Below, piece by piece: positions 1 through 26,685 of a DNA stretch of 32,000 nucleotides. Each line of letters begins with the position of its first letter. The stretch's first letter is position 1. This DNA is from Mycoplasma mobile 163K (lineage in GTDB: Bacteria; Bacillota_I; Bacilli_A; Mycoplasmatales; Metamycoplasmataceae), in contig NC_006908.1 of the NCBI RefSeq assembly GCF_000008365.1, positions 30,001 through 62,000 on the forward strand, in the 5' to 3' direction. The position numbers and the translations under genes were made by a program. The notes below the pieces were generated by a model, which saw only the letters and a list, made by a program, of their open reading frames with translations, did not search any database and was not told the DNA's origin.

Positions 1-901
1 GTATTTCTAATTCATTTTTAGCTAATCTATTTTCTTGAGTATTAAAATATCTTTTAAAAAAGTCTTGTGAATATTCCATTTGTCTTAAATTTATTGGATT
101 ATTAATTTTATTTATAAATTCTTCTCTATTCACATTTTCATCAATATCAAATTTAACTCTTGAAGTATTTATTCTTATTAAATAAGTATAATCAAAACCA
201 TTATTATCAGCTCTTTGTTTTTTCTCTAATAAGAAAAATCCATTTTCAGTTGTAAATGTTTCAGGATTAATATTATTATAAGTAGCATCAACAAAAAAAC
301 TACCAGCATAATCGTTTGGAACTAAATCTTTGGGGCTTAAATTAGCATTTTTAAGCCCTATTAATAAGCGGTAAGCTGAAGTTAATTTATCTTCACTATT
401 TATAGTACCTATCATTTCACTTGTTGGTATACTTGTAAATCAGTTAGAATTTCTACTTACATATGAATCATTTGAATTTAAATAAGTTAGACCTCTTAAT
501 CTATCTTGAATTGTTTCTTTTGTATAGCGAAGATCTATTCGGGAAACATTATTTCTACTAATTTCTTTTATTAATTCTATATGTTCTACAGCATTTCTTG
601 GAATACTTAAATCTTTATTTAAAAGTGGTGAAACTAAAATTCTTTCAAGAATTTCATTATTAGCAAAATCTCCATATGCATAACCACTAGCATATTTATT
701 ATTTGTAGGAGCTAAAATTTCTGCAGATGAATTTTCTATAAAATTAGCATTTACCTTATTTTTATTTAAAGTAAAAGTTTCTTCTTGAATGAATTTTTCT
801 TGTGATTTTTTAATTAAAATAACACCATTAAACAAAAAAGAACTTAATGCTAGAGTTCCACTAAAAAAGAAAATTGTTTTTAAAAATTTATTTACCTTCA
901 T
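1..901 (-). CDS. Tandem-family membrane-anchored surface protein, copy 1 (N-terminal ~300 aa only; the gene runs off the left edge)
   Basis: With table 4, track ORF 440..964 continues in frame through TGA at 440..442 down to base 1. ATG at 901..899 is preceded by GGAG (ggagttatATG). The N-terminus MKVNKFLKTIFFFSGTLALSSFLFNG is a hydrophobic signal/anchor. The track's upstream extension MLKTILDNF... (GTG at 964) covers the promoter and is not used. Confidence 0.75.
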
Positions 902-929
902 ATAACTCCATTTTGTTTGCAATATAAAA

Positions 930-938
930 ATTATATCA
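930..938 (-). promoter_or_regulatory. Extended -10 box (TGATATAAT on the minus strand) upstream of copy 1
   Basis: Minus strand reads tttTGaTATAATttttatattgcaaacaaaatGGAGttatATG. The element recurs identically upstream of every copy. No convincing -35 at 17 bp spacing. Confidence 0.45.
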
Positions 939-1004
939 AAATTATCTAATATGGTTTTCAACACTAATTTAAAGCTATTTCGCTAGTGCTTAATTCAAAA
1001 AATT

Positions 1005-3335
1005 TTATTTTTTACTTTTTTTTGACTTAATGAATTTTCATAAACTAAAAGAAGTAATTGCAACTACTAAAAAGCTAGCACTAATAGAACCTATAATTAC
1101 AGGTAAATTATTGTTAATAAGAACATCAAATCCTAAAACAAGTCCTAAATCTTGATTTAAAGTAAAATCTTTATTTGTAATTTCATTATTTACAACATTA
1201 GTATTAAATTCATTTACTAAATTTCATTGAATTCTAATTTTTGCACTACCATTAGCTTTATTTGCTTCATAAATTTCTAAAAAATTTATTTTTGATAAGT
1301 ATTCTAAATCTGAAATTATTAAACCTTTTAAAGCCAATTCTTTTTTAAATTCTTCGATTGATTTATTATTTCTACTAAATATTTCATTTTCAGGGGTAAT
1401 TTTATTATTAATTTCCATTTTCATTTTTGAACTATCAAAATTTTGGAATCCTTTTATTTCAAAAGAGTTGAAAAATTCAAAACCTTTTTCTATTAATTGC
1501 AATATTGTTCGATTAAAATTAATTTTAATATTTGCACTTCCGTTTAAAATATCACTATTTGAAATTTCAATACTATCAATAGTTTTTTCGATTTCTGGAT
1601 TTTCAAAATTTAATCCTGTAAATCTCAAATCTTTATTAAGATACATTCCATCAATAGCAAAAAAATTATTATTTGCATTAACTCATTTTGGATAGGATGA
1701 ATTATTATTAATATTAACAGCTTTAAAAGAATTGAAAGGTGTTAAAAATTCATGAGAATAAGTTCTTATTTGCCTATCAACTTCTGAAAGAGAAAATTCC
1801 ACATTTTCAAAATTAATTTTAATATTTGCTCTTCCGGTAATAAAATCACTTTTACTTATCTCAATTGATTTAATTTGTGTAGTCATAAAATCATTAACAT
1901 TATTTAAAATAATTCCATTAGCATCAAATTGAGCTCTTGTATATATTCCATCTACAGAAAAAATATTATTATTAAAACTTAAATTATTTTCTACTCAATT
2001 ATTAAAATTATTATCTTCTAATTTTCTAAAGAAATAATTCATTGGAATTCTAATAATTGTTTTTCTAAAATTCTCAACAACATTTCCATTAGGAAGAGTT
2101 AGATTTTTTGGTCCTTTTTCTACAAATAAATCTTTATAATTAATATTAACAAATCCTAAATTTGGATTTTGTCCTCCCTTAATCATATAAATATCACTTA
2201 ATATTTTATGAATTCTCTCTCCTAAAATTTCTTCAATTTCTAAAGGAGTATGAATCACTACTCCACTATTAAATGGTCTTGTGTTTAATTTTTGATTAAT
2301 ATATGTATCATCATATTCAACATCAATAAAAAATCTATCTTCTATTTTTAAATTCACATCATTTTTCACAAAAAGATCTAATTTAGGAATACTTAAATTT
2401 CCTAATTCATTTTTAATACTTAATTTTTCTAAAAGTATTTCTAATTCATTTTTAGCTAATCTATTTTCTTGAGTATTAAAATATCTTTTAAAAAAGTCTT
2501 GTGAATATTCCATTTGTCTTAAATTTATTGGATTATTAATTTTATTTATAAATTCTTCTCTATTCACATTTTCATCAATATCAAATTTAACTCTTGAAGT
2601 ATTTATTCTTATTAAATAAGTATAATCAAAACCATTATTATCAGCTCTTTGTTTTTTCTCTAATAAGAAAAATCCATTTTCGGTTGTAAATGTTTCAGGA
2701 TTAGTATTGTTATAAGTTGCTTCAACAAAAAAACTACCAGCATAATCATTTGGAGCTAAATCTTTGGGGCTTAAATTAGCATTTTTAAGTCCTACTAATA
2801 AGCGATAAGCTGAAGATTGTTTGCCATGAGAATTTATACTATCTATCATTTCATTTGTTGGTATACTTGTAAATCAGTTAGAATTTCTACTTATATATGA
2901 ATCGTTTGAATTTAAATAAGTTAAACCTATTAATCTATCTTGAATTGTTTCTTTTGTATAACGAAGATCTATTCGGGAAACATTATTTCTACTAATTTCT
3001 TTTATTAATTCTATATGTTCTACAGCATTTCTTGGAATACTTAAATCTTTATTTAAAAGTGGTGAAACTAAAATTCTTTCAAGAATTTCATTATCAGAAA
3101 AATCTCCATATGCATAACCACTAGCATATTTATTATTTGTAGGAGCTAAAATTTCTGCAGATGAATTTTCTATAAAATTAGCATTTACCTTATTTTTATT
3201 TAAAGTAAAAGTTTCTTCTTGAATGAATTTTTCTTGTGATTTTTTAATTAAAATAACACCATTAAACAAAAAAGAACTTAATGCTAGAGTTCCACTAAAA
3301 AAGAAAATTGTTTTTAAAAGTTTATTTACCTTCAT
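1005..3335 (-). CDS. Tandem-family membrane-anchored surface protein, copy 2 (776 aa)
   Basis: Table-4 fusion of track ORFs 2874..3398, 1995..2849, 1683..1886 and 1224..1646. Gaps of 24, 108 and 36 nt are all in frame and each junction is a TGA. In-frame 1005..1223 is added, ending in TAA at 1005..1007. ATG at 3335 follows GGAG. N-terminal hydrophobic anchor; C-terminal TM LPVIIGSISASFLVVAITSFSLW followed by KFIKSKKSKK. Confidence 0.85.
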
Positions 3336-3363
3336 ATAACTCCATTTTGTTTGCAATATAAAA

Positions 3364-3372
3364 ATTATATCA
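3364..3372 (-). promoter_or_regulatory. Extended -10 box upstream of copy 2
   Basis: Identical TGATATAAT element at the same offset from the ATG as in the other units. Confidence 0.45.
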
Positions 3373-3438
3373 AAATTATCTAATATGGTTTTCAACACTA
3401 ATTTAAAGCTATTTCGCTAGTGCTTAATTCAAAAAATT

Positions 3439-5766
3439 TTATTTTTTACTTTTTTTTGACTTAATGAATTTTCGTAAACTAAAAGAAACAATAGCAAATG
3501 CTAAAAATGCGCCACTAATAGAACCTACAATAATTGCTAAATTATTATTAGTAGGAACATCAAATCCTAAAACAAGTCCTAAATCTTGATTTAAGATAAA
3601 ATCTTTATTTGTAATTTCATTATTTACTACATTAGTATTAAATTCATTTACTAAATTTCATTGAATTCTAATTTTTGCACTACCATTAGTTTTATTTGCT
3701 TCATAAATTTCTAAAAAATTTATTTTTGATAAGTATTCTAAATCTGAAATTATTAAACCTTTTAAAGCCAATTCTTTTTTAAATTCTTCGATTGATTTAT
3801 TATTTCTACTAAATATTTCATTTTCAGGGGTAATTTTATTATTAATTTCCATTTTCATTTTTGAACTATCAAAATTTTGGAATCCTTTTATTTCAAAAGA
3901 GTTGAAAAATTCAAAACCTTTTTCTATTAATTGCAATATTATTCGATTAAAATTAATTTTAATATTTGCACTTCCGTTTAAAATATCACTATTTGAAATT
4001 TCAATACTATCAATAGTTTTTTCGATTTCTGGATTTTCAAAATTTAATCCTGTAAATCTCAAATCTTTATTAAGATACATTCCATCAATAGCAAAAAAAT
4101 TATTATTTGCATTAACTCATTTTGGATAGGATGAATTATTATTAATATTAACAGCTTTAAAAGAATTTAAAGGTGTTAAAAATTCATGAGAATAAATTCT
4201 TATTTGCCTATCAACTTCTGAAAGAGAAAATTCAACATTTTCAAAATTAATTTTAATATTTGCTCTTCCAGTAATAAAATCACTTTTACTTATCTTAATT
4301 GATTTAATTTGTGTAGTCATAAAATCATTAACATTATTTAAAATAATTCCATTAGCATCAAATTGAGCTCTTGTATATATTCCATCTACAGAAAAAATAT
4401 TATTATTAAAACTTAAATTATTTTCTACTCAATTATTAAAATTATTATCTTCTAATTTTCTAAAGAAATAATTCATTGGAATTCTAATAATTGTTTTTCT
4501 AAAATTCTCAATAACATTTCCATTAGGAAGAGTTAGATTTTTTGGTACTTTTTCTACAAATAAATCTTTATAATTAATATTAACAAATCCTAAATTTGGA
4601 TTTTGTCCTCCTTTAATCATATAAATATCACTTAATATTTTATGAATTCTCTCTCCTAAAATTTCTTCAATTTCTAAAGGAGTATGAATCACTACTCCAC
4701 TATTAAATGGTCTTGTGTTTAATCTTTGATTAATATATGTATCATCATATTCAACATCAATAAAAAATCTATCTTCTATTTTTAAATTCACATCATTTTT
4801 CACAAAAAGATCTAATTTAGGAATACTTAAATTTCCTAATTCATTTTTAATACTTAATTTTTCTAAAAGTATTTCTAATTCATTTTTAGCTAATCTATTT
4901 TCTTGAGTATTAAAATATCTTTTAAAAAAGTCTTGTGAATATTCCATTTGTCTTAAATTTATTGGATTATTAATTTTATTTATAAATTCTTCTCTATTCA
5001 CATTTTCATCAATATCAAATTTAACTCTTGAAGTATTTATTCTTATTAAATAAGTATAATCAAAACCATTATTATCAGCTCTTTGTTTTTTCTCTAATAA
5101 GAAAAATCCATTTTCAGTTGTAAATGTTTCAGGATTAGTATTGTTATAAGTTGCTTCAACAAAAAAACTACCAGCATAATCATTTGGAACTAAATCTTTC
5201 GGACTTAAATTAGCATTTTTCAGTCCTACTAATAAGCGGTAAGCTGAAAATTGTTTTTGATATTGTAAAATTGAATCTAATCTTTCTTGAGTAGGTATAG
5301 ACGTAAATCAATCACTATACATAGTTGTATAACTAAAATGATTATCAATACCTAAAGTACCCAATCTATCTTGAATTGTTTCTTTTGTATAACGAAGATC
5401 TATTCGGGAAACATTATTTCTACTAATTTCTTTTATTAATTCTATATGTTCTACAGCATTTCTTGGAATACTTAAATCTTTATTTAAAAGTGGTGAAACT
5501 AAAATTCTTTCAAGAATTTCATTATTAGCAAAATCTCCATATGCATAACCACTAGCATATTTATTATTTGTAGGAGCTAAAATTTCTGCAGATGAATTTT
5601 CTATAAAATTAGCATTTACCTTATTTTTATTTAAAGTAAAAGTTTCTTCTTGAATGAATTTTTCTTGTGATTTTTTAATTAAAATAACACCATTAAACAA
5701 AAAAGAACTTAATGCTAGAGTTCCACTAAAAAAGAAAATTGTTTTTAAAAATTTATTTACCTTCAT
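3439..5766 (-). CDS. Tandem-family membrane-anchored surface protein, copy 3 (775 aa)
   Basis: Table-4 fusion of 5308..5829, 4429..5001 (with 306 in-frame nt upstream lacking a Met), 4117..4320, 3658..4080 and 3439..3657. TAA at 3439..3441. ATG at 5766. The C-terminal anchor is a variant: LAIIVGSISGAFLAFAIVSFSLRKFIKSKKSKK. Confidence 0.85.
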
Positions 5767-5794
5767 ATAACTCCATTTTGTTTGCAATATAAAA

Positions 5795-5803
5795 ATTATA
5801 TCA
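5795..5803 (-). promoter_or_regulatory. Extended -10 box upstream of copy 3
   Basis: Identical TGATATAAT element at the same offset. Confidence 0.45.
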
Positions 5804-5869
5804 AAATTATCTAATATGGTTTTCAACACTAATTTAAAGCTATTTCGCTAGTGCTTAATTCAAAAAATT

Positions 5870-8233
5870 TTATTTTTTACTTTTTTTTGACTTAATGAAT
5901 TTTCATAAACTAAAAGAAGTAATTGCAACTACTAAAAAGCTAGCACTAATAGAACCTATAATTACAGGTAAATTATTGTTAATAAGAACATCAAATCCTA
6001 AAACAAGTCCTAAATCTTGATTTAAGATAAAATCTTTATTTGTAATTTCATTATTTACTACATTAGTATTAAATTCATTTACTAAATTTCATTGAATTCT
6101 AATTTTTGCACTACCATTAGCTTTATTTGCTTCATAAATTTCTAAAAAATTTATTTTTGATAAGTATTCTAAATCTGAAATTATTAAACCTTTTAAAGCC
6201 AATTCTTTTTTAAATTCTTCGATTGATTTATTATTTCTACTAAATATTTCATTTTCAGGGGTAATTTTATTATTAATTTCCATTTTCATTTTTGAACTAT
6301 CAAAATTTTGGAATCCTTTTATTTCAAAAGAGTTGAAAAATTCAAAATCTTTTTCTATTAATTGCAATATTATTCGATTAAAATTAATTTTAATATTTGC
6401 ACTTCCGTTTAAAATATCACTATTTGAAATTTCAATACTATCAATAGTTTTTTCGATTTCTGGATTTTCAAAATTTAATCCTGTAAATCTCAAATCTTTA
6501 TTAAGATACATTCCATCAATAGCAAAAAAATTATTATTTGCATTAACTCATTTTGGATAGGATGAATTATTATTAATATTAACAGCTTTAAAAGAATTGA
6601 AAGGTGTTAAAAATTCATGAGAATAAGTTCTTATTTGCCTATCAACTTCTGAAAGAGAAAATTCCACATTTTCAAAATTAATTTTAATATTTGCTCTTCC
6701 GGTAATAAAATCACTTTTACTTATCTCAATTGATTTAATTTGTGTAGTCATAAAATCATTAACATTATTTAAAATAATTCCATTAGCATCAAATTGAGCT
6801 CTTGTATATATTCCATCTACAGAAAAAATATTATTATTAAAACTTAAATTATTTTCTACTCAATTATTAAAATTATTATCTTCTAATTTTCTAAAGAAAT
6901 AATTCATTGGAATTCTAATAATTGTTTTTCTAAAATTCTCAACAACATTTCCATTAGGAAGAGTTAGATTTTTTGGTACTTTTTCTACAAATAAATCTTT
7001 ATAATTAATATTAACAAATCCTAAATTTGGATTTTGTCCTCCCTTAATCATATAAATATCACTTAATATTTTATGAATTCTCTCTCCTAAAATTTTTTCA
7101 ATTTCTAAAGGAGTATGAATCACTACTCCACTATTAAATGGTCTTGTGTTTAATTTTTGATTAATATATGTATCATCATATTCAACATCAATAAAAAATC
7201 TATCTTCTATTTTTAAATTCACATCATTTTTCACAAAAAGATCTAATTTAGGAATACTTAAATTTCCTAATTCATTTTTAATACTTAATTTTTCTAAAAG
7301 TATTTCTAATTCATTTTTAGCTAATCTATTTTCTTGAGTATTAAAATATCTTTTAAAAAAGTCTTGTGAATATTCCATTTGTCTTAAATTTATTGGATTA
7401 TTAATTTTATTTATAAATTCTTCTCTATTCACATTTTCATCAATATCAAATTTAACTCTTGAAGTATTTATTCTTATTAAATAAGTATAATCAAAACCAT
7501 TATTATCAGCTCTTTGTTTTTTCTCTAATAAGAAAAATCCATTTTCGGTTGTAAATGTTTCAGGATTAGTATTGTTATAAGTTGCTTCAACAAAAAAACT
7601 ACCAGTATAATCATTTGGAGCTAAATCTTTGGGGCTTAAATTAGCATTTTTAAGTCCTACTAATAAGCGATAAGCTGAAGATTGTTTGTCAGATTGTAAA
7701 ATTAAATCTAATCTTTCTTGAGTTGGTATAGATGTAAATCAATCACTATACATAGTTGTATAGTTAAACTGATTATCGATACTTAAAGCGTTTAATCTAT
7801 CTTGAATTGTTTCTTTTGTATAACGAATATTTATTTGAGAAACATTATTTCTACTAATTTCTTTTATTAATTCTATATGTTCTAAAGCATTTCTTGGAAT
7901 ACTTAAATCTTTATTTAAAAGTGGTGAAACTAAAATTCTTTCAAGAATTTCATTATCGGAAAATTCACCATATGCATAATCACTAGCATATTTATTATTT
8001 GTAGGAGCTACTATATGCTCTGCAATACTAATAAAACTATTTATATTTATTCTATCTTGATTATTTATAGAAGTATTATTAACGCTTCTTCTTACTCTTG
8101 CATTTGTATTATTTAAATTTTCAGGATTTCTTGTAATGTAATTGCTATTAACGGCAATGTTAGCAAACGAAAAAGAACTTATCGCTATAACTCCAACTAA
8201 AAAAATTATTTTCAAAATTTTATTTACTTTCAC
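5870..8233 (-). CDS. Tandem-family membrane-anchored surface protein, copy 4 (787 aa; divergent N-terminal module; GTG start)
   Basis: Table-4 fusion of 7739..8233, 6860..7432 (plus 306 in-frame nt), 6548..6751, 6089..6511 and 5870..6088. TAA at 5870..5872. The start codon is GTG (plus-strand cac at 8231..8233) behind the same GGAG. The first ~75 aa are unrelated to copies 1-3; homology resumes at APTNNKYAS. Confidence 0.8.
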
Positions 8234-8262
8234 ATAACTCCATTTTGTTTGTACTATAAAAA

Positions 8263-8271
8263 ATTATATCA
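8263..8271 (-). promoter_or_regulatory. Extended -10 box upstream of copy 4
   Basis: Same attatatca (plus strand) element. The region between the -10 box and the RBS differs slightly from the other units (A6 versus A5 run). Confidence 0.4.
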
Positions 8272-8376
8272 AAATTAGCTAATATGATTTTAAACATTAT
8301 TCTAACATTTTGCAAAATTAGCTTTTAAACTTATTGTTATATAAATTTGTTTTATCATAAAGATAATGTTTGAATG

Positions 8377-8382: not shown

Positions 8383-8479
8383 TTTTGTGAATAGAGATAG
8401 TTAAAGAAATAAAAATATTTCTATTTCAATCTAATGAATTGCATTTTTTAAATAAAATTAAGAAGACATGAGGACAAAA

Positions 8480-8736
8480 TGGAAAATAAGAAAAATGAAA
8501 AAAATTTCGAGTGATTTAAAAATAATTTTGAAAGTTTAAAAAAAGCATATTCAAAAAAATATTTTTTAATAGAAGATGAAAAAATTTTAGCTAATTTTGA
8601 CGATTTGAAAGAAGCTTCTTATTTTCTTTCGAAAGAAGAAAATAAAGATAAAGATATTTCTATTCAAAGTGTTGAAGATTTAAATTTGAAAAATCAAAAT
8701 TTCTTTTCTAATATCGGAAGAAAATATGCCAAATAG
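8480..8736 (+). pseudogene. Small ORF (~85 codons if repaired) interrupted by a 1-nt frameshift in an A-run at 8519..8522
   Basis: ATG at 8480 has a good RBS (GAGGAcaaaATG) and reads MENKKNEKNFEWFK, then hits TAA at 8537. The adjacent frame is open from 8521 to TAG 8734..8736 (NNFESLKKAYSKKYFLIEDEKILANFDDLKEASYFLSKEENKDKD...GRKYAK) but contains no Met. One extra A would join the two parts. The 3' end overlaps the next gene's ATG by 11 nt. Confidence 0.45.
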
Positions 8737-9361
8737 AATTTTTCAAAAAATCCATGAAAATAAAATTATTATTAAAGTAATATTAGTTAATAATATAGAC
8801 ATTTTAAAGTTTTGGAAAAACAATTCTCATTTAACTGAAAAAGTAAATGATTTTGTAAAAGGAAAAATTTTGCAGCGATATGGAAAGTTAGTAGACATTT
8901 CTCAAGAAGAATTTTTTAAGATTCTTAATGAAGACATTCCTTTATGAAGTAAATGATTAGAGTTTCTTAAAAGTATTGAAAAATATCAAAAAGAAATATT
9001 CGCTTTAATTGATACCGGAGCTACAAGTTCAGCAATTTCTCAAGAAATTGCAAATGAGTTAGGTTTAATTTCAATAGGAAAATCATCAGTTCAAACAGCA
9101 TCAAATAGACTTATTACTTCCAAATATCTTGTGTCGTTATCCTTTTTAACAGAAAGCACTTTACTTTTACCTTCTATAGAAAAAAACTTTCAAGAAAAAT
9201 CCTTTTATACAAATAAATTAGTACCTTTTGAGCAGATTATAGAAGTAACAAGTCTAGAAAATTTAAGACAATCACAAAATATTGATATGTTAATAGGTAT
9301 GGATATATTGAAAAACACTCATTTTACTATTTTTAGTGACAATGCTATGATTTCTGTCTAA
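8726..9361 (+). CDS. Retropepsin-like (clan AA) aspartic protease domain protein, 211 aa
   Basis: Track ORFs 8726..8947 and 9131..9361 are in the same frame and are joined through two TGA codons (PLWSKWLEF). The product contains the catalytic-type motif ALIDTGATSSAIS and, ~100 aa later, MLIGMDILK. This is the DTG plus (I/L)LGxDxL pairing typical of bacterial/archaeal retropepsin-like proteases. Stop is TAA at 9359..9361. Confidence 0.7.
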
Positions 9362-9616: not shown

Positions 9617-12600
9617 TTTCAAGAATACATAAGAATGATACTACACCAAAACTGTTTGAAAAAGTGGAGTTGTTTGTCTAATGTTTAAGAATACATAAGA
9701 ATGATACTACACCAAAACATTTATCTTGCAATGCTTGGAGTAAAATTAGTTTAAGAATACGTAAGAATGAAACTACACCAAAACATTTATCTTGCAATGC
9801 TTGGAGTAAAATTAGTTTAAGAATACATAAGAATGAAACTACACCAAAACATATAAAAAATTTTATTTCCGAAAGTGAATGTTTAAGAATACATAAGAAT
9901 GATACTACACCAAAACTGAATCTCTTCTTCGTTTAATGTATCACGTGTTTAAGAATACATAAGAATGATACTACACCAAAACATGTTTTAGAATATGATA
10001 TTAATTTTAAAAGTTTAAGAATACATAAGAATGATACTACACCAAAACTATTAAGTGTAGATAAAAAATTATCTTTAAGTTTAAGAATACATAAGAATGA
10101 TACTACACCAAAACAATTACTACATAATGGAAAATCAAATCAAAGTTTAAGAATACATAAGAATGATACTACACCAAAACATATAAAAAATTTTATTTCC
10201 GAAAGTGAATGTTTAAGAATACATAAGAATGATACTACACCAAAACTGTAGGTTATACAGTTGCTTTAAATACTTAGTTTAAGAATACATAAGAATGATA
10301 CTACACCAAAACCAATGCAGCACTATTTAGAAAATGATTTAAGTTTAAGAATACATAAGAATGATACTACACCAAAACCAGACCAGCCTTATTATAAAAG
10401 TGAAATTTGTTTAAGAATACATAAGAATGATACTACACCAAAACTTTAATTTTGCGCTATCTTTAATTTTTTTAGTTTAAGAATACATAAGAATGATACT
10501 ACACCAAAACAAAAGAAGAATGAGATTTTTTACTAAATGAGTTTAAGAATACATAAGAATGATACTACACCAAAATCATATATCTCCTTTTATTGAGAGT
10601 TGTTTTGTTTAAGAATACATAAGAATGATACTACACCAAAACCTGCAGGACAAATAACTTTAAGAAATACAGTTTAAGAATACATAAGAATGATACTACA
10701 CCAAAACTTTAAGAAACATAGAAAATAATCAATATGAGTTTAAGAATACATAAGAATGATACTACACCAAAACTACAAAGACCAGAACTAATAGGAGCAT
10801 TTTGTTTAAGAATACATAAGAATGATACTACACCAAAACTGACGAAACTCATTCATATCAATACCTTTTGTTTAAGAATACATAAGAATGATACTACACC
10901 AAAACGCATAACTTAATTTGTATTTATAAGGTCGTGTTTAAGAATACATAAGAATGATACTACACCAAAACAGTGGAGGTTTTAGACAATGAAGTAGATA
11001 AGTTTAAGAATACATAAGAATGATACTACACCAAAACGATTAGTAGATAACGTAATTAAAGTAGTAAGTTTAAGAATACATAAGAATGATACTACACCAA
11101 AACGACCTTAATGTGCTAACAAATGGACAAATTGTTTAAGAATACATAAGAATGATACTACACCAAAACACATTAAACAAATCTAAATTTGCATTTAAAG
11201 TTTAAGAATACATAAGAATGATACTACACCAAAACCGAATTAAATGCAGAAGTTATTGCAATTAAGTTTAAGAATACATAAGAATGATACTACACCAAAA
11301 CGAGTTTCTGACTTTGAGACTATAACAGCGAGTTTAAGAATACATAAGAATGATACTACACCAAAACTGAAACAAGTCCAGTCGATAAAGGAAATGAGTT
11401 TAAGAATACATAAGAATGATACTACACCAAAACCTTCACCATGATAATATTTTGCTAATTCTAGTTTAAGAATACATAAGAATGATACTACACCAAAACT
11501 CATTGTATAATCTTTTTTTCAATTTGTATGTTTAAGAATACATAAGAATGATACTACACCAAAACCAGATCAACCTTATTATAAAAGTGAAATTTGTTTA
11601 AGAATACATAAGAATGATACTACACCAAAACTAGAATAGGTTAAACCCAGTCTGCTTAATAGTTTAAGAATACATAAGAATGATACTACACCAAAACCCC
11701 ACAATTTATTACAAGAAATAATAAACAGTTTAAGAATACATAAGAATGATACTACACCAAAACATATATTATTATACTATCAAAATAATACATGTTTAAG
11801 AATACATAAGAATGATACTACACCAAAACAATATTAGAGCAGTAAAATTAAGTATTTATGTTTAAGAATACATAAGAATGATACTACACCAAAACAGTAT
11901 TAACTCCTGTAATTCTAATTAAATGGTTTAAGAATACATAAGAATGATACTACACCAAAACAAGAGCAATTGATTTAAGAATTTTCCAACCGTTTAAGAA
12001 TACATAAGAATGATACTACACCAAAACATGCACACACTGACACCATAATATAAAAATGTTTAAGAATACATAAGAATGATACTACACCAAAACCTTCACC
12101 GTGATAATAAGACGTTAATTCGAGTTTAAGAATACATAAGAATGATACTACACCAAAACAATATCTTCTCTTGTTGTATATCATTCGTCGTTTAAGAATA
12201 CATAAGAATGATACTACACCAAAACATATTATAGTTAGTAGTTTCTTCTTTATTCGTTTAAGAATACATAAGAATGATACTACACCAAAACAGAGTGATT
12301 ATACGCTCACTTCAAAATTAAGTTTAAGAATACATAAGAATGATACTACACCAAAACGAATGATAATAACTATATCTGCTTTTTGCTGTTTAAGAATACA
12401 TAAGAATGATACTACACCAAAACTTATATGCGCCTGCTTTTCCATGGAAAAAGGTTTAAGAATACATAAGAATGATACTACACCAAAACATGGTATCAGG
12501 TGATAGTAAAATAGTAGAAGTTTAAGAATACATAAGAATGATACTACACCAAAACTACTGGATTTGAATTAAATTTTGATGACGGGTTTAAGAATACATA

Positions 12601-13743
12601 AGAATGATACTACACCAAAACCAATGCAACACTATTTGGAAAATGATTTAAGTTTAAGAATACATAAGAATGATACTACACCAAAACGGTAATGATTCAG
12701 GCTCTATTTGATAGATTGTTTAAGAATACATAAGAATGATACTACACCAAAACAGACTCAAGCACCAATAGATTCAGTATTAAGTTTAAGAATACATAAG
12801 AATGATACTACACCAAAACTAAAAGAAAGAGAGTTATACTCTCTTTCTTGTTTAAGAATACATAAGAATGATACTACACCAAAACGCTGACTGTTCTTTG
12901 TTGTTTGTTTCATTTGTTTAAGAATACATAAGAATGATACTACACCAAAACATTCTGCCCAACTAATAAATCAAAAAAATAGTTTAAGAATACATAAGAA
13001 TGATACTACACCAAAACTGTCTGTATCTAAATAATAAACATTTTTTCGTTTAAGAATACATAAGAATGATACTACACCAAAACGCACTGTCTGCAAGCTT
13101 TGCTTATGTAGCTGTTTAAGAATACATAAGAATGATACTACACCAAAACTCACGAAGTTTTATGAAAAGAAATTGAAAAGTTTAAGAATACATAAGAATG
13201 ATACTACACCAAAACCTAATTTATCAAATGAAATTGTTAATTTATGTTTAAGAATACATAAGAATGATACTACACCAAAACCCTACGCTTGCAACTTTTA
13301 AATTCGTCATAGTTTAAGAATACATAAGAATGATACTACACCAAAACATAGGTCAGATTTTTTCTAATGCACCCTTTGTTTAAGAATACATAAGAATGAT
13401 ACTACACCAAAACTGATTATATAAGAGAGCACCAAAATGCTTAGTTTAAGAATACATAAGAATGATACTACACCAAAACATATATTATTTTAATGGTAAT
13501 TTAATACATGTTTAAGAATACATAAGAATGATACTACACCAAAACACAAAATTGTAAATAATAAATTATTACTTGGTTTAAGAATACATAAGAATGATAC
13601 TACACCAAAACTGAAACATCATTTATATTATCTGAACAAGAGTTTAAGAATACATAAGAATGATACTACACCAAAACTCTAAACTTATCAGCAAACCACA
13701 TTTATCAGTTTAAGAATACATAAGAATGATACTACACCAAAAC
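9617..13743 (-). CRISPR. Type II-A CRISPR array, 63 repeats of 36 bp and 62 spacers
   Basis: Plus-strand repeat is GTTTAAGAATACATAAGAATGATACTACACCAAAAC. On the transcribed strand it is GTTTTGGTGTAGTATCATTCTTATGTATTCTTAAAC. Period is 66 bp throughout except for one 29-nt spacer at 10643..10671. Degenerate repeats cluster at the low-coordinate end: 9617..9652 starts tttc instead of gttt, 9749..9784 has 2 SNPs, 9815..9850 has 1 SNP, and 10541..10576 ends in T. This marks 9617 as the trailer end and 13743 as the leader end next to csn2. Confidence 0.99.
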
Positions 13744-13761: not shown

Positions 13762-14445
13762 CTAAATTTTTTCCAAAAATTTATTTATCAAAAATGAATC
13801 AAAGCTTTCTTCACCTTTTAAATAATTATTGATTTTTTCAACCGTTATTAAAGTTTTAGTTCCTGATTCTAAATAATTTATCAATTTTTCTTTGTCAAAA
13901 ATTTCAACAATTTCTTTTTTATTTGCAAAAACAAGTTGCTCAATATTTTCAAAAGATAAATTGTATGCAAGTTTATCAATTAAATAAATAATATTTAATT
14001 TATTAAAAATGAATTCACTAAAATTTTTTAGTTTTATTCCATAGATTAAAATACTAATTGTTTCGTTAGAATATTTATCAATTATTTTTAAAATATTTAA
14101 AATATTTATTTCATTAATTAGTAAATCTTTATCGATTTCTAAAAATGATTTGGTATTTTTTTCTAAATCTAAATTTGTAGAAACAAATTCAAACCCTAAT
14201 TTTTGATTTATATCATTTGACATTTCATTAATTTTTTCATGCGAAATGAGATTTAGAAAATTAATACTATATTCGTCCATAAAAAAATTATTAAAAAAGC
14301 TTTTAGATTTAAAATTAAGAATTTCAGAAACTTTTGAAAAAGGATTAATAATTAAAAAATCATTTATATTTTCTAAATTTAATAAAAATTCAAAATAATT
14401 ATTAGTATAAATAATTTTATTTTCTGCAAAATTAATTTTCATCAT
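13762..14445 (-). CDS. csn2: Csn2 (type II-A signature protein), 227 aa
   Basis: Position directly after cas2 and before the array; size ~220 aa; N-terminus MMKINFAENKIIYTN resembles canonical short Csn2 proteins. Start overlaps cas2 by 14 nt. Stop is TAG at 13762..13764. Assignment rests mainly on context and size. Confidence 0.8.
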   Translation of the reverse strand: MMKINFAENKIIYTNNYFEFLLNLENINDFLIINPFSKVSEILNFKSKSFFNNFFMDEYSINFLNLISHEKINEMSNDINQKLGFEFVSTNLDLEKNTKSFLEIDKDLLINEINILNILKIIDKYSNETISILIYGIKLKNFSEFIFNKLNIIYLIDKLAYNLSFENIEQLVFANKKEIVEIFDKEKLINYLESGTKTLITVEKINNYLKGEESFDSFLINKFLEKI

Positions 14446-14773
14446 GATTAATTTTTATAAATCTTTCGTTAGAATTTATACTTTCATTTATTTTTCTATT
14501 TCCTCTTAAAATTTTCATATCTAAAAACTCTCTATCTGTAATTTTTAAAATTCTAACATGGCCATTAGAAGGCAATTTTTTTTCTACTAATTTTACAAAA
14601 GAATCAGCTTTGGAATTAGTATTAGCAACTCTATAATAAACAGAATATTGCATCATTATAAAACCTAAACTTTGAATATACCGATGGAATTTATTATACT
14701 CTTTTAATTCATTTTCTTCTTTCATATTAAAATCATACATCAAAATTAATCTCACAATTCTACTCATTCTCAA
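14432..14773 (-). CDS. cas2: Cas2
   Basis: The sequence (M)RMSRIVRLILMYDFNMKEENELKEYNKFHRYIQSLGFIMMQYSVYYRV matches the type II Cas2 pattern (compare S. pyogenes MRMILMFDMP...KFRKFLLSEGFIMHQFSVY). The track start at 14773 is TTG. The first ATG is at 14767 and may be the real start. Stop is TAA at 14432..14434. Confidence 0.9.
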   Translation of the reverse strand: MRMSRIVRLILMYDFNMKEENELKEYNKFHRYIQSLGFIMMQYSVYYRVANTNSKADSFVKLVEKKLPSNGHVRILKITDREFLDMKILRGNRKINESINSNERFIKINHDEN

Positions 14774-15648
14774 CTTCTTTTATTTACTAAATTATCTGCT
14801 ATTTGATCAAATGTATCATTTACATAAAAATACTTTCCTTTATAGATTACTTTTTTATTTAAAACATTTATTAATTCATCTTTTATTTTTACATCAAAAA
14901 ATGTTTCATCTTTATGTAAATATGCAATTTCATCTACTAGAGGTCTAAAAATTTCAATCAAATCACTTGCAAGGGCAAAGAAATTAGAAAAAGATTTATG
15001 AAATATACTAAATCTAGGATCTAAACCTTTTTTAATAATTGATTGGATTGCAGAAGATCTTAAAATAGAATAACCATAATTTAAAATTGCATTAACAATT
15101 TCAAATTTATCAAATTTTAATTTTGTTGCTGAATTATTTCTTATAAATTCTTTTGAATATGTCATATTTCAATAGACTTTTGCTGCATGACCTTCTCGAT
15201 TTGAAATGTCAAACAAATTCACATTATTAATTAAATCATCAAAATATTCAATTCCAAATTCAGAGTTATTAAATAATTTATTTTTAATTAATAAATTCTT
15301 TTGATTATGAATTTTATTTTTAATAATATCTTTTCATAAAATTGCTTTATATTCTTTAGTTCATTTTACTTGTTCTGCTACAACTTTTAAAGAATTGTGA
15401 TTTCCTTCAATTGGAATTAAATAAGAATTAGGCTCATTTTTTTCATTCATAAAAATAATATTGACATTATTTTTAGCTAAAAATGTTAAAAGTCTTATTG
15501 AAATTGTTGAATATTGATTATTAAATAAAATAGTATCTATATCTCTAATGTTTAAAAGAATTTTTTCATTTTTTCTTTTTATATACAAATTATTTAAATA
15601 TAAGTGAACATATTCATCTGTATTAATTTCTACAATTTTTCAACCCAT
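14746..15648 (-). CDS. cas1: Cas1 (300 aa under table 4)
   Basis: ATG at 15648 (MGWKIVEINTDEYVHLYLNNLYIKRKNEKILL). Track ORFs 15361..15588 and 14770..15165 are in frame and are bridged by 65 stop-free codons that include NREGHAAKVYW. Downstream motifs are NAILNYGYSILRS and ALASDLIEIFRPLVD. The apparent stop at 14770..14772 is TGA, so the ORF continues (WEWVELWD) to TAA at 14746..14748. Confidence 0.9.
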
Positions 15649-15651
15649 AAA

Positions 15652-18600
15652 TTATTTTTTAAATATTTCTCCCATATAAGTTAAATTAACTTTTTTCCAA
15701 TTTGGAAAATACTTTTTGACAGGTTTCTGAATTTGTTTTTGATCTTTTATTTTTTTTCCTAAAATGTATTTTATTTCCAATTTTTGAGGTTTTTCATCTC
15801 TTCCAACAATATAAAACAATTCTTTTTCTTCATTTTCAAACAAATCTCCTTTATTAATTTTTAAAATAGGTTCTTCATTTATAATTTGCAATTTTTCTTT
15901 TTGAGTTTTTAATTTTTCATAATTTATTTTTATTTCATCCTTTTCAAATTTTGAGTTTCTTGCATCAATTGAGATGAAACAATATTGATCTTTTTGATTT
16001 TTATACACTCAAATTTGAACTCAATATAAAGTATTGTGAAACGAAAAATTTTGTCTTTGATCAATTTTTAAAAAATTGCTTTGAGAGAAAATTATTTCAT
16101 CAGTTTCCTTTTCTTCACTAGAAAATTTAATGTATCTAATTTTTCTGATAATTTTGAAATCATTATCAAGAATAGGAACCCATTCATTAAAGGAAATTTT
16201 TCCTTCTTGAAGTTTTTTATTTACAAAATATTTGAAGTAATTTTTTTCATTTAGATTTTTATTTTTAATTTCAATTTTCACTTCATTTCAAATGATTTTA
16301 AGAGTTTCATACAAGTTTTTATCATGATTAAAAATATGTAATTTAGTTAGTTCATTCTCCTTTAATTTGTCTTCGTCAAAAAACTCTTCAATTTTTTTAA
16401 TTTTATCTGTTCTATTGTCTAATAAATTCAACTTTTCAACTTTTTTTATCGTATTTTTCCCCTTATCATATTTACCTGAGTAAAGAGTTTCATTAAATAA
16501 TTGAGTATTTTTCTTTGTAATAACCATTCTACTAAATCTCATCTGATTTAGCTTTTCATTTAATTCATCCAAAGCATTAATTAATAGAAAATTGTCAAAA
16601 CTAGCTTTTTCTTTAAATTTAATATTATTTTTTTCAAGATCATCTAATTCTCTTGTTTCTTTTCTATAATTAACATTTAATCTTTCAATTCTTTTAAAAC
16701 TTCTAAAATATTGGCTAATTATTGTTATAAAATAAGCATCTTCAGCATGATGTCCGTTAAAACTTCTATCCTTAATAAGAACATCATCTTTTACATCATT
16801 TTTTCCTTCTTCTCTTATTAAGAAGTCATTACTATTAATACTTTTAAATCCTTCAGGTCTTTTTCATTCTCTTTCGGTTTCTTTATTATTTTTTATACCA
16901 ACAAAAGCAATTTGATTTCTCAAATTAGATGTTTGCTTTCCATTTACAGAAACCACAGAATATTTATATTTTGAATTTGAAAAAGTTAAGTGATTTACAA
17001 GAGCATTTGTAATGTAGCTTGTATCACTTAAATTTCTATTAATAAAATCACTATTATCAAATTCATCTAAATTATCAATTGTATATAATTTTATAAATTT
17101 ACCTTTATCATTAAAAGCCTTGCCATTAGCATTTCTTAAATATCAATTTCCTCAATTTTCTTTTGCTTCTTTTAATTTTTCTATTCCATATATTTTTTCA
17201 ATAAATTGCTTTGCGCTTAAATCATTTGATTTTTTAGCATTATCTAATTTATTAACAATAACAAGATTTGAAAAAGAATCATCAAAAGATATACTTCTTG
17301 GAACAATATGATCAATATCATAATTTCAAGGTTTGTTTATAACATCATTAGCTTCAATTTTTCTTAACGAATATGCATCATATCCTTGTTGTTGCCTTAA
17401 TAATCACAATTTTTTTAACAAAGTTGTATTTTCATTTGGTAAATCATAAACTTTTTTTAGTTCTTCGTATTTTTCTTTTCTATATTTATTTATTCCTTCA
17501 ATTTTTTTTCTTTCGTGTTTATTATTTGAACTTCTTGTTACTTCAACAACAATTTTTTCAATTTCTAAATTATTTTTTTCGCTATACTTAAAAATTTCTT
17601 TTAGTAGATTCATTGTTTGTCTTAAAGATCTTTTTACAGTAGGAGAAGCAATAAGATCTTCTACTCAAGTTTTTTCAAATAAATTTGAATGAGAAAAATT
17701 ATTTTTCTGGTTTTGTAATGCTTTTTCTTCATATGAAATTGTTGAATAATTTTTAGATCCCTCAGAAATTAAATTTGGTATGAATTTATAATAAGCTCCA
17801 AAACTTAAAGAAGAAGTTCCACTAAATTCTCTTAATTTAGCAATTTCACTATATATTTCTGAAGATTTAACATCTTTTTTCAAATTAGAAAATTCAAAAT
17901 ACCCTTCTAAAATTCTTATTCTATCTTGTATTGTTGAAAATTTATTCAGGATATTTGAAATAGCATCAAAAATATGCAATACGTTGTTATTTTGATTTAT
18001 TTCATAACTTCCTTTTTCATTAGGAACAAATAATTTTTCAGATTGTTGTTTATAAAAACTCATTAATTTACTTAAATCATTTTCATTAGAAATTAAATAA
18101 TTTTCAAAATTTATTAAATGCTTTTTAAAAATAGTTGTCAAGCTGTGGTAAGCATTAATAATAGGTAAATTAATTTTATTATCATCTTTATTGTAAGCAA
18201 TTTCTGATAAGTTTTCAAATTTAATATTTTCTTCTTTAAGTATTTTTTCAACTGCGGATTTTGAATCTTTATTTAGAAATCTAGACAGTAAAATTTTTCT
18301 TTTTAATCTTTCAGAAATATATTCATTTTTATGTTTTCAGTCTGTTAGTTTATTTGTTATATCAAAAACTTTAGCAGAAAAAGAATTTTTAGGCGCTCGA
18401 TATAATTTTTTATCATAAGAACATTTTCCTATTTTAGATTCCCATAAGGTTTTAAAAATTTTAGTATAAATTTTTTGTCCCTTTTCATTAATTATTAGTT
18501 CCGGATTACCATTTTCATTAGCATACAAACCGTATTTTGAAAAACTTTTTTCATTACCTGGTCCTTCTGAATAATTTCTAATTCTTGAAAAAAAACTTTT

Positions 18601-19332
18601 TTCTTCCATAGCAAATTTTTCATAATTCATAAAATCAATATTTTGCTTTTCAAAAACTTGTTTTATTTCTTTAAGATAATCTTGATGACCAAATTTTAAA
18701 TTAATAGTACTTCTAATTTTTCCTGAAATTTTATAAAATTCAATAATTTTGTCTATTGGAAATTCTGCATTTTTTATGCTTTCATTTTTGTCAAAAATCT
18801 CAATTTCATTCTTATTCATTTCTTTAGATTTTGTATCTTCTGGATTGTCAAAAAATGCTCCTCTTAAAGATAAATAAAAATATAGCAATACAATAAGTTC
18901 ACTTTTATCTAATTTATATTTTTCATTAATTGCAGCTTTTCTTAAATTGTGAAATCCAATTGGTAAATTTGTTACACTTTTATATTTTAATTCTAAATTT
19001 TTACTAAAAGGATTTATATATTTCTCAATAAAATTTCTTACAAGAATTTTAGGATTTTTATCAAATTCTAATTCAATAATATTGTTATCGATTAAATATT
19101 TAATAAAATCTCTTTTTCTTGTAAATAACCTTCTATTTCTTCGTCTTTGTCCACGTTTTTTTCTTCTTGTTTCATTTAATAACTTATCATCGCTATCATC
19201 CACTGTTTCGAATAACCTTACTCCATGTAAAATGATTGGAAACTTATTATCTTCTTTTTGTGAAATATCTGTGAGACATCAACCTACAGAAGCAATTCCT
19301 AAATCAAGCCCTAAAACAACTTTTTTATTCAA
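15652..19332 (-). CDS. cas9: Cas9, type II-A, 1226 aa
   Basis: Track ORFs 15652..16008, 16021..16281, 16288..16572, 17404..17613, 17665..18141 and 18337..19203 share one frame and are separated only by TGA. Motifs: RuvC-I NKKVVLGLDLGIASVGW; Arg-rich bridge helix RRKKRGQRRRNRRLFTRKRD; RuvC-II IVVEVTRS; HNH YDIDHIVPRS...NLVIVNKLDNAKKSN; RuvC-III NGHHAEDAYF. Start is TTG at 19332, with AAGGAG 6 nt upstream and no ATG before RuvC-I. Stop is TAA at 15652..15654. Confidence 0.95.
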
Positions 19333-19360
19333 TTTATTCTCCTTATTTTTGTAAAAGTAC

Positions 19361-26656: not shown

Positions 26657-26685
26657 AAAAATTCTGTTAATTCAGAATTTTTTTA
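26657..26685 (+). terminator. Rho-independent terminator after the ABC operon
   Basis: AAAAATTCTG-ttaatt-CAGAATTTTT forms a 10-bp stem and runs into a T-tract, 20 nt after the permease stop. Confidence 0.7.

What the first reader, a model, noticed from the sequence alone, without database searches (positions are those of the whole stretch)
1..8271. Tandem array of near-identical ~2.43-kb units, each a complete promoter-plus-gene for a ~780-aa surface-anchored protein
Four consecutive minus-strand genes (1..901 partial, 1005..3335, 3439..5766, 5870..8233) are head-to-tail copies of one ~2434-bp unit.

Each unit is one large ORF, visible only with TGA=Trp, plus a ~100-bp spacer that repeats the same extended -10 box and GGAG RBS. 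Every copy therefore looks independently expressible rather than being a silent cassette.

Copies 1-3 differ only by scattered substitutions over most of their length. More than 8 kb of direct repeat is recombinationally unstable in a minimal genome. Its retention suggests selection for dosage, copy-number plasticity or surface variation. The array continues beyond the left edge.

From memory, the Mycoplasma mobile 163K genome paper (Jaffe et al. 2004) reported a ~2435-bp unit in five copies encoding nearly identical proteins. The period here matches, so the repeat may already be on record. I know of no assigned function.
Basis: partly seen in the sequence, partly recalled or inferred. Interest (0 to 1): 0.7.

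Follow-up and report, generated by a model that had tools for sequence, protein, structure and literature searches.

The report
Known Mycoplasma mobile long-repeat surface-gene array
This is the already-annotated tandem array of five near-identical "long repeat protein" genes of Mycoplasma mobile 163K; the predicted membrane-anchored protein has no relative in any database searched, and the copies have swapped segments while keeping a few very different patches near the outer end.

Summary
Window 1-8320 holds 3.4 head-to-tail units (period 2434/2434/2431 bp). Each unit is one minus-strand ORF that is open only under code 4, plus a 103-nt spacer carrying the same TGATATAAT extended -10 and GGAG.

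The window is M. mobile 163K, genome 30001-62000. The ORFs match GenBank "Long repeat protein copy 1-4" exactly. Copy 5 and a 141-aa remnant lie left of the window. The array is therefore already on record, with no function assigned.

What this analysis adds:
- The family is a strict orphan. Exhaustive HMMER against 1.84 billion representatives, a word-indexed search of 5.8 billion clusters, Pfam, NCBIfam, PADLOC, PDB, phage, plasmid, viral and metagenome searches found nothing outside this genome.
- The predicted protein has an N-terminal hydrophobic segment without a lipobox, a ~715-aa ectodomain ending in three ~95-aa modules, and a C-terminal transmembrane segment with a Lys-rich tail.
- The copies are mosaics. 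The core has dS 0.007-0.03 between full-length copies, while islands reach dS 0.3-0.74. Nine of 15 pairs of 2|3 splits are incompatible.

This indicates concerted evolution by gene conversion with retained islands of divergence. That fits a surface-diversity family better than simple dosage amplification. No classic phase-switch signal was found. Structure prediction failed. Expression and function remain untested.

The parts
1..901 (-). 5' 900 nt (first 300 codons) of LRP copy 4 (AAT27510, inferred tag MMOB0240); the rest lies left of the window
   Evidence: The code-4 translation matches the N-terminus of P0006
902..1004 (-). 103-nt spacer upstream of copy 4, with TGATATAAT at 930-938 and GGAG at 906-909
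   Evidence: Alignment of the four upstream regions
1005..3335 (-). LRP copy 3, 776 aa (AAT27511 / WP_011264545)
   Evidence: The window translation is the sequence used as query; it reads the same as P0003
3336..3438 (-). Spacer upstream of copy 3, with extended -10 TGATATAAT at 3364-3372 and GGAG at 3340-3343
   Evidence: No terminator-like hairpin between copies
3439..5766 (-). LRP copy 2, 775 aa (AAT27512), which has its own variant of the transmembrane segment
   Evidence: Reads the same as P0005
5767..5869 (-). Spacer upstream of copy 2, with TGATATAAT at 5795-5803
5870..8233 (-). LRP copy 1, 787 aa with a GTG start (RefSeq WP_041362721; the GenBank AAT27513 model starts 6 codons later). 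Its first ~76 aa are diverged
   Evidence: Reads the same as P0002. N-terminal region dS 0.55, dN 0.51 against the other copies
8234..8320 (-). Upstream region of copy 1 and right-hand end of the repeat. The same TGATATAAT (8263-8271) and GGAG are present; homology to the internal spacers fades about 85-90 nt upstream of the start
2814..2930 (-). Hypervariable block B in copy 3 (aa ~136-174). The equivalent blocks are at about 380-496 (copy 4), 5248-5361 (copy 2) and 7679-7792 (copy 1). There are two deep types, {c1,c2} and {c3,c4,c5}, flanking an invariant WFTSIPT
   Evidence: dS up to 0.74, dN/dS 0.7-1.5 between types. Coordinates computed from the alignment
1107..2003 (-). Three tandem ~95-aa internal modules (R1 aa 445-545, R2 545-640, R3 640-742) in copy 3, next to the membrane; the same modules occur in every copy
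   Evidence: Smith-Waterman against shuffles: R1-R2 z=14.3, R2-R3 z=4.2, R1-R3 z=2.7
1008..1106 (-). C-terminal transmembrane segment (aa ~744-766) and the KFIKSKKSKK tail of copy 3, including an A8 tract (1016-1023)
   Evidence: Hydropathy; homopolymer scan

Best explanation
SHOWN:
- This is the 'long repeat protein' (LRP) array of Mycoplasma mobile 163K. It comprises five full tandem genes plus one 3' remnant, of which copies 1-3 and the start of copy 4 lie in the window.
- Every unit carries the same extended -10-like box and RBS. No terminator-like hairpin separates the units.
- The product has no detectable homologue outside this genome.
- It has hydrophobic segments at both ends, no Cys and so no lipobox, a Lys-rich C-terminal tail, and three tandem ~95-aa modules just before the C-terminal transmembrane segment.
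- The copies are mosaics. The core and spacer are homogenised (dS 0.007-0.03 between full-length copies). The core is under purifying selection. Sharply bounded islands have dS 0.3-0.74, and different islands group the copies differently.

INFERRED:
- The array evolves in concert, by gene conversion and unequal crossing-over between units. The conserved 3' core, spacer and 5' signal region serve as the recombination substrate.
- Old islands of divergence persist, mostly in the N-terminal part of the ectodomain, which is probably the membrane-distal part.
- The cell would therefore display several isoforms of one orphan surface protein, anchored by the C-terminal transmembrane segment, with the three modules acting as a stalk.
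- Recombination can reshuffle the patch combinations and change the copy number.
- The most likely role is surface or host-interface diversity in this fish pathogen, not a housekeeping function.
For: Identity with the known array. The genome position comes from MMOB0360 at 51115-52590, which is window 21115-22590.

Repeat and ORFs.

Promoter-like box and RBS conserved in all four upstream regions, including the otherwise divergent one upstream of copy 1. No terminator-like hairpin.

Orphan status.

Topology and internal modules.

Mosaic structure: segment-specific groupings; six distinct 2|3 splits with 9 of 15 pairs incompatible, where a five-taxon tree allows only two such splits.

Rate heterogeneity: core dS 0.007-0.03 between full-length copies, block B 0.22-0.74, N-terminus of copy 1 0.55, transmembrane segment of copy 2 0.27.

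Purifying selection in the core: 9 synonymous against 10 nonsynonymous differences, where 18.5% of sites are synonymous, P=0.004. All full-length copies available as DNA or protein are intact.

The remnant AAT27509, with the copy-2-type transmembrane segment, lies between copies 4 and 5 and records a past rearrangement.

A described analogue in which conserved regions of tandem surface-protein paralogues act as recombination sites that shuffle variable regions: PMC2568036.
Against: - No expression evidence for any copy was found.
- Surface location and topology are predicted only.
- Both structure predictions failed (pLDDT 30 and 49), so the idea of a stalk plus a distal variable head is a guess from sequence.
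- dN/dS in block B is not significantly different from neutral (P=0.41). The islands could persist simply because high divergence blocks conversion, without any selection for diversity.
- Only one genome exists, so reshuffling and copy-number change have not been observed.
- The conserved -10 and RBS in copies 2-4 are part of the homogenised repeat. Only the copy 1 upstream region gives independent support for them.
Confidence: 0.6

Rival explanations
1. Dosage amplification. The array is a gene amplification kept to raise the output of one abundant surface protein, and the variable patches are incidental.
For: The core and spacers are more than 99% identical, the promoter-like boxes are identical, and all copies are intact.
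Against: The islands have dS 0.3-0.74, so the copies have coexisted for a long time and are not a recent amplification. The differences cluster in the ectodomain N-terminal region and group the copies in conflicting ways. Dosage and diversity are not mutually exclusive.
Confidence: 0.22
2. A classic mycoplasma phase-variable surface antigen family of the vlp/vsp/vsa type, with on/off switching by promoter tract slippage or site-specific inversion.
For: It is a multigene family in a mycoplasma encoding a predicted surface protein with internal ~95-aa modules.
Against: No homopolymer or SSR lies in the promoter or the 5' coding region; the only tract of 8 nt or more is an A8 eleven nt before the stop. 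No recombinase or invertase is encoded in the 32-kb window. There is no lipobox, since the protein has no Cys. The promoters are identical in all copies.
Confidence: 0.06
3. A neutral or decaying segmental duplication, or an assembly artefact.
For: The family is an orphan with no known function, and repeats are prone to mis-assembly.
Against: Every copy carries its own private differences and blocks, so these are distinct loci and not a collapsed or expanded assembly. Five ORFs of ~2.3 kb are intact in a 21-23% GC region, and the core shows an excess of synonymous changes (P=0.004). The one decayed unit, AAT27509, shows what loss looks like here.
Confidence: 0.05
4. A defence-linked surface function, for example masking a phage receptor, suggested by the position next to a retropepsin-like gene and the type II-A CRISPR-Cas locus.
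For: The array ends about 1.3 kb from the CRISPR array. The intervening protease-like ORF has weak hits to the PADLOC candidate PDC-M08B.
Against: The LRP has no PADLOC hit. It has no phage, plasmid or viral relatives. No CRISPR spacer matches the array. Adjacency in a 777-kb genome is weak evidence.
Confidence: 0.03

Closest known systems
Long repeat protein copies 1-5 of Mycoplasma mobile 163K (GenBank AAT27508, AAT27510-27513; inferred tags MMOB0220 and MMOB0240-0270)
   Same: It is the same locus. The window ORFs read the same as the deposited proteins, and five copies are named in the record.
   Different: Nothing differs. The record gives no function, and nothing about the genes was found in the held literature.
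Staphylococcus aureus lpl tandem lipoprotein-like cluster in the nuSa-alpha island (Tsuru and Kobayashi 2008, PMC2568036)
   Same: Both are tandem same-strand paralogues for predicted host-interface surface proteins. In both, conserved sequence within the ORFs serves as the recombination substrate, variable regions give incongruent groupings, and the unit of evolution spans the 3' end of one ORF, the spacer and the 5' end of the next (one search compared).
   Different: There is no sequence relationship. The lpl products are lipoproteins, and LRPs have no lipobox. The lpl copies are far more diverged overall. The lpl analysis rested on many genomes, whereas only one exists here.
M. mobile Mvsp variable surface proteins, Gli123 and Gli349, which carry lipoprotein-17 (PF04200) repeats (bioRxiv 10.1101/2022.09.07.507039)
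   Same: Same organism, predicted surface proteins, and built partly from tandem ~100-aa modules that contain beta-hairpins.
   Different: LRP segments give no PF04200 hit even at E<=10. The tags MMOB02xx do not appear in that paper's supplement, which holds its lipoprotein-17 tables. LRPs have no lipobox. Mvsps differ from each other in repeat number, and they are not near-identical whole-gene tandem copies.
Gene-conversion antigenic variation in mycoplasmas (M. genitalium MgPar with mgpB/mgpC; M. synoviae vlhA pseudogenes). Comparison from my own knowledge.
   Same: Segmental recombination between repeated copies produces mosaic surface proteins.
   Different: Those systems have one expression site plus silent, truncated donor cassettes. 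Here every copy is full-length and has its own promoter-like box and RBS.

Membership tests
M. mobile 163K long repeat protein (LRP) array | The protein sequences match the deposited copies | tested here: met
   Window translations read the same as P0003 (copy 3), P0005 (copy 2), P0002 (copy 1) and the N-terminus of P0006 (copy 4)
M. mobile 163K long repeat protein (LRP) array | Genomic position in strain 163K | tested here: met
   MMOB0360 is at genome 51115-52590(+) in the supplement of 10.1101/2022.09.07.507039, which equals window ORF 21115-22590(+). The cluster's contig is 777,079 bp
M. mobile 163K long repeat protein (LRP) array | A ~2435-bp unit in five copies, as described in the 2004 genome paper | tested here: inconclusive
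   The period of 2431-2434 bp and the five named copies fit. The paper is not held, so its wording is unverified
Lipoprotein-17 (PF04200) domain proteins / Mvsp | Match to the PF04200 HMM | tested here: not met
   No hit for the whole protein at E<=1, nor for five separate segments at E<=10. MMOB02xx tags are absent from the supplement holding the published M. mobile PF04200 tables
Lipoprotein-17 (PF04200) domain proteins / Mvsp | Lipoprotein signal peptide with a lipobox Cys | tested here: not met
   The protein contains no cysteine
Lipoprotein-17 (PF04200) domain proteins / Mvsp | Fold of the ~100-aa module (three beta-strands plus a helix) | tested here: inconclusive
   The model of module R2 has pLDDT 49, with only a beta-hairpin at about 65. 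Foldseek against PDB gave nothing with E<=0.001
Phase-variable mycoplasma surface gene families (vlp, vsp, vsa types) | A switch element: a homopolymer or SSR in the promoter or 5' coding region, or invertible DNA with a site-specific recombinase | tested here: not met
   The spacers are identical and have no tract of 7 nt or more. The only tract of 8 nt or more is at the 3' end of the coding sequence. No recombinase is encoded in the window
Tandem paralogue cluster evolving in concert (interlocus gene conversion) | Head-to-tail copies on one strand with homogenised sequence | tested here: met
   core dS 0.007-0.03 between full-length copies
Tandem paralogue cluster evolving in concert (interlocus gene conversion) | Mosaic copies: phylogenetically incompatible segments and sharp changes in divergence | tested here: met
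   Six 2|3 splits, with 9 of 15 pairs incompatible. Block dS reaches 0.74 next to flanks with almost no differences
Tandem paralogue cluster evolving in concert (interlocus gene conversion) | Observed conversion or copy-number change between isolates | not testable with these tools
   No second M. mobile genome or relative exists in any collection searched
Anti-phage defence systems (PADLOC) | Match to a defence-protein model | tested here: not met
   No PADLOC family for the LRP at E<=0.01

The most novel reading that the evidence does not exclude
The LRP array is a cassette-free diversity generator. It encodes an orphan-fold surface protein whose five fully expressed tandem copies exchange short hypervariable patches by intra-array gene conversion, and gain or lose units by unequal crossing-over. 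A clonal M. mobile population would then continually produce new combinations of surface isoforms, without silent donor cassettes, invertases or slippage tracts.
Probability: 0.2. Interest if true: 0.5.

Novelty: already known. Interest (0 to 1): 0.3.

Why it matters
The array takes up an estimated 12-13 kb, about 1.6% of a 777-kb minimal genome, yet its product has no homologue among about 15 billion predicted proteins and no assigned function. That retention needs an explanation. The mosaic pattern gives a concrete and testable hypothesis: surface diversity maintained by recombination within the array. It also identifies the exact patches to follow in long-read or copy-specific proteomic experiments (block B, the copy 5 block, and the transmembrane and tail variants). 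The existence of the repeat is not new, and M. mobile is a niche organism, so the wider significance is modest.

Tried and rejected
- Homology searches, all empty outside this genome: Pfam and NCBIfam on the whole protein; Pfam on five segments at E<=10, which gave only a sub-threshold MucBP_2 hint for module R2 (E=0.019, 15.9 bits against a 23.4 cutoff) that I do not rely on; the word-indexed search of 5.8 billion clusters with the protein and with a module profile; exhaustive phmmer against 1.84 billion representatives; PDB by sequence and by profile (the capsid and plastocyanin matches are chance-level); PADLOC; tblastn against phages and plasmids; metagenome and viral contig scans.
- Left-flank DNA: both genome-contig scans were empty, and even the source genome was not returned, so it is presumably not held or is masked. 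The look-up of encoding contigs had no record for P0001 or P0004. Copies 4 and 5 and the remnant could therefore be analysed only as proteins.
- Structure: AF2 on the full protein gave pLDDT 30. AF2 on module R2 with a six-row alignment of its paralogous modules gave pLDDT 49. Foldseek on the latter gave nothing. I draw no structural conclusions.
- Literature: the 2004 genome paper is not held. Searches for 'long repeat protein', MMOB0220-0270 and MMOB02* gave no papers. The '2435' search gave nothing relevant. Three supplements contained no mention.
- Rfam found nothing in the window.
- The generic promoter scan is uninformative in this AT-rich DNA (71 found against 81 expected).
- The antisense 140-aa ORFs inside each unit are rejected as shadow ORFs, because they contain no Met and are hydrophobic and low in complexity.
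- My first column-wise syn/nonsyn count for the core accidentally included part of the variable transmembrane segment and was not significant. I replaced it with the pairwise Nei-Gojobori counts for aa 196-750.
Full report

Yes. The repeat finder reports four in-register copies with start-to-start spacing of 2434, 2434 and 2431 bp, at 98-100% identity over 300-nt probes. Whole-unit alignment gives 96.0% identity between the units at 1005-3438 and 3439-5869, and 93.5% between either of these and the rightmost unit.

With translation table 4 the minus strand has four long open frames: 1-982 (which runs off the window), 1005-3416, 3439-5847 and 5870-8263. With table 11 each breaks into 3-4 pieces. 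Each copy uses 4-5 TGA codons for Trp and no TGG.

The products are 776, 775 and 787 aa.

The 103-nt spacers are identical between copies. They contain TTTTGATATAAT, an extended -10 of the TGnTATAAT type, 29-37 nt upstream of the start, and GGAG 5-8 nt upstream. The region upstream of the rightmost copy is otherwise different but keeps both motifs, and its homology fades about 85-90 nt upstream of the start. No terminator-like hairpin lies between copies. The generic promoter scan carries no information in this AT-rich DNA, with 71 sites found against 81 expected. 'Independently expressible' therefore rests on motif conservation only.

**2. Where the window comes from, and what is already on record**

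The word-indexed search of 5.8 billion protein clusters returned a single cluster, 'long repeat protein copy 1 [Mycoplasma mobile 163K]', from a 777,079-bp contig. Its six members are GenBank 'Long repeat protein copy 1-5' (AAT27513, 27512, 27511, 27510 and 27508) plus the RefSeq remodel of copy 1.

The window ORFs read the same as copies 3, 2 and 1, and as the N-terminus of copy 4. A supplementary table of a 2022 preprint places MMOB0360 (sugar ABC transporter binding protein) at genome 51115-52590(+). This is window ORF 21115-22590(+), a PnrA-like binding protein, so the window is genome 30001-62000. Counting genes back from MMOB0360, the LRP genes are MMOB0270 (copy 1) to MMOB0220 (copy 5). 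This tag assignment is an inference.

I could not read the 2004 genome paper. No paper or supplement in the held library mentions these genes.

**3. The family is a strict orphan**

- Exhaustive phmmer against 1.84 billion representatives of about 15 billion proteins found only one other sequence, P0007.
- P0007 is AAT27509, a 141-aa ORF of the same genome. Its accession number places it between copy 5 and copy 4. It corresponds to the last ~139 residues of an LRP and carries the transmembrane variant otherwise seen only in copy 2. It is a 3' remnant of a sixth unit.
- Pfam, NCBIfam and PADLOC gave nothing for the LRP.
- PDB by sequence and by profile gave only chance-level matches.
- tblastn against phage and plasmid records gave nothing.
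- A profile of the internal modules gave nothing new.
- Metagenome and viral contig scans gave nothing.

**4. Architecture of the protein**

There are two hydrophobic segments, at aa ~10-30 and ~744-766. The N-terminus (MKVNKLLK) and the C-terminal tail (KFIKSKKSKK) are both positively charged, and there is no cysteine, so there is no lipobox. The predicted protein is either a type I membrane protein, if the N-terminal segment is cleaved, or is anchored at both ends. Either way it has a ~715-aa external domain.

The C-terminal third of that domain consists of three tandem ~95-aa modules. Smith-Waterman scores against shuffled controls give R1-R2 z=14.3, R2-R3 z=4.2 and R1-R3 z=2.7. The modules share a hairpin-like motif, I-x-S-I-E-I-S-x-S-D-x-x-x-G-x-A-N-I-K-I-N-F.

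M. mobile Mvsps, Gli123 and Gli349 are built from ~100-aa lipoprotein-17 domains, which made a relationship plausible. It was not borne out. There is no PF04200 hit even at E<=10, and the MMOB02xx tags are absent from the supplement holding that paper's domain tables. A fold-level test was not possible, because AlphaFold2 gave pLDDT 30 for the whole protein and 49 for module R2, and Foldseek on the latter found nothing. I draw no structural conclusions.

**5. The copies are mosaics**

Aligning the five proteins shows that the differences fall in bounded blocks, and each block groups the copies differently:

| Segment (alignment columns) | Grouping |
|---|---|
| aa 1-76 | copy 1 alone |
| aa 86-138 | copy 5 alone |
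| aa 150-188 (block B) | {1,2} against {3,4,5}, flanking an invariant WFTSIPT |
| Transmembrane segment | copy 2 alone (shared with the remnant) |
| C-terminal tail | {4,5} against {1,2,3} |

Between about aa 200 and 750 the copies are almost identical. Among parsimony-informative columns there are six distinct 2|3 splits, and 9 of the 15 split pairs are mutually incompatible. A five-taxon tree can hold only two such splits.

Nei-Gojobori estimates under code 4:

| Region | dS | Notes |
|---|---|---|
| Core | 0.007-0.03 | between full-length copies |
| Block B | 0.22-0.74 | dN/dS 0.7-1.5 between the two types |
| First 80 codons of copy 1 | 0.55 | dN 0.51 |
| Transmembrane segment of copy 2 | 0.27 | |

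The core shows an excess of synonymous change: 9 synonymous against 10 nonsynonymous differences, where 18.5% of sites are synonymous (P=0.004). Block B is indistinguishable from neutral (P=0.41).

**6. How it most likely works**

Shown: a head-to-tail array whose core and spacers are homogenised, with old islands of divergence that have been shuffled among the copies.

Inferred: concerted evolution by gene conversion and unequal crossing-over. The long conserved stretch, which runs from the 3' core through the spacer into the 5' signal region of the next gene, acts as the recombination substrate. The remnant ORF is a scar of one such event. This closely parallels the S. aureus lpl tandem cluster, where conserved regions inside the ORFs mediate recombination that shuffles the flanking variable regions (PMC2568036).

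The islands are old, so the array is not a recent dosage amplification. All full copies are intact and the core is under constraint, so it is not decaying junk. The variable islands lie mainly in the N-terminal part of the external domain, so a family of surface isoforms for host-interface or antigenic diversity is the best-supported reading. I rate the composite statement at about 0.6. The identity of the locus and the mosaic structure are near-certain, and the functional reading is less than even.

I found none of the classic mycoplasma switches. There is no homopolymer or SSR in the spacers or the 5' coding region; the only tract of 8 nt or more is an A8 eleven nt before the stop. There is no recombinase in the 32-kb window, and there is no lipoprotein signal.

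**7. Rivals**

- Dosage amplification, about 0.22. It is compatible with the identical promoters but not with the age of the islands.
- A phase-variable vlp/vsp/vsa-type family, about 0.06. The defining features were tested and not met.
- A neutral duplication or assembly artefact, about 0.05. Private differences in every copy, intact ORFs and a constrained core argue against it.
- A defence-linked role suggested by the adjacency to CRISPR-Cas, about 0.03. There is no PADLOC hit, there are no mobile-element relatives, and no spacer matches the array.

**8. Novelty and score**

The repeat and its five genes are already annotated, so the finding is already known. This analysis adds four things: orphan status shown at very large scale, the three-module architecture, the remnant unit, and the quantified mosaic, concerted-evolution pattern. 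These make the question 'why does a minimal genome keep ~12-13 kb of this?' testable. They do not overturn anything. Interest 0.3.

**9. Surroundings**

Right of the array, in order:
- A 94-aa ORF (8452-8736, +) that overlaps a retropepsin-like aspartyl protease ORF (8726-9361, +). The protease ORF scores 33 bits against PF13975, above the 28.2 cutoff.
- A type II-A CRISPR-Cas locus on the minus strand. The array at 9617-13743 has 63 repeats of 36 nt and 62 spacers. It is followed by csn2, cas2, cas1 and cas9.
- thyA and folA, an ABC transporter operon, an unannotated 223-aa ORF, ldh, two tandem Mycoplasma-MFS paralogues and the start of lysS. The folA and lysS calls rest on my reading of the translations, not on a tool hit.

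Noticed in passing
window 9617-13743 (array) and 13762-19368 (minus-strand genes): A large type II-A CRISPR-Cas locus. It has 63 copies of a 36-nt repeat (GTTTTGGTGTAGTATCATTCTTATGTATTCTTAAAC on the cas strand) and 62 spacers of 29-30 nt, two of which occur twice. It is followed by csn2, cas2, cas1 and a 1238-codon cas9. No spacer matches elsewhere in the window at up to 5 mismatches, and Rfam has no match to the repeat.
   Followed up: yes
window 8452-8736 (+) and 8726-9361 (+): A retropepsin-like aspartyl protease ORF with an ALIDTGATSS motif (PF13975, 33 bits against a 28.2 cutoff). It has weak hits to the PADLOC candidate-defence model PDC-M08B (E=6e-5). A 94-aa ORF precedes it and overlaps it by 11 nt in another frame. 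The pair lies divergently between the LRP array and the CRISPR array. A single-DTG bacterial retropepsin in a minimal genome is unusual, and its role is unknown.
   Followed up: partly
outside the window, left of position 1 (protein P0007 = AAT27509): A 141-aa ORF that the accession order places between LRP copies 4 and 5. It is a 3' remnant of a sixth unit, 87% identical to copy 3 over aa 638-776. It carries the transmembrane variant otherwise private to copy 2. This is evidence of a past deletion or unequal crossover. Its DNA could not be retrieved.
   Followed up: partly
window 28505-29923 (+) and 30031-31446 (+): Two adjacent paralogous genes for Mycoplasma-type MFS transporters (the first scores 229 bits against PF07672), 58% identical to each other. 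This is a second, much older tandem duplication in the same window.
   Followed up: partly
window 1016-1023, 3450-3457, 5881-5888: An A8 tract (T8 on the + strand) lies within the last codons (KSKKSKK) of each LRP gene in the window. Copies 4 and 5 end with a different tail, SIKSKRSSKNKL. Whether that tail arose by slippage at this tract could not be checked without their DNA.
   Followed up: no
window 1273-1695, 2191-2619 (+), repeated at 3707-4129, 4625-5053, 6138-6560 and 7056-7484: Antisense ORFs of 140-142 codons inside every repeat unit. They contain no Met codon and are hydrophobic and low in complexity, so they are shadow ORFs of the N/K/E-rich coding strand and not genes.
   Followed up: yes
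window 26671-27393 (+): A 223-aa ORF (from its first Met) between the ABC transporter permease genes and ldh has no Pfam match at E<=0.001.
   Followed up: no
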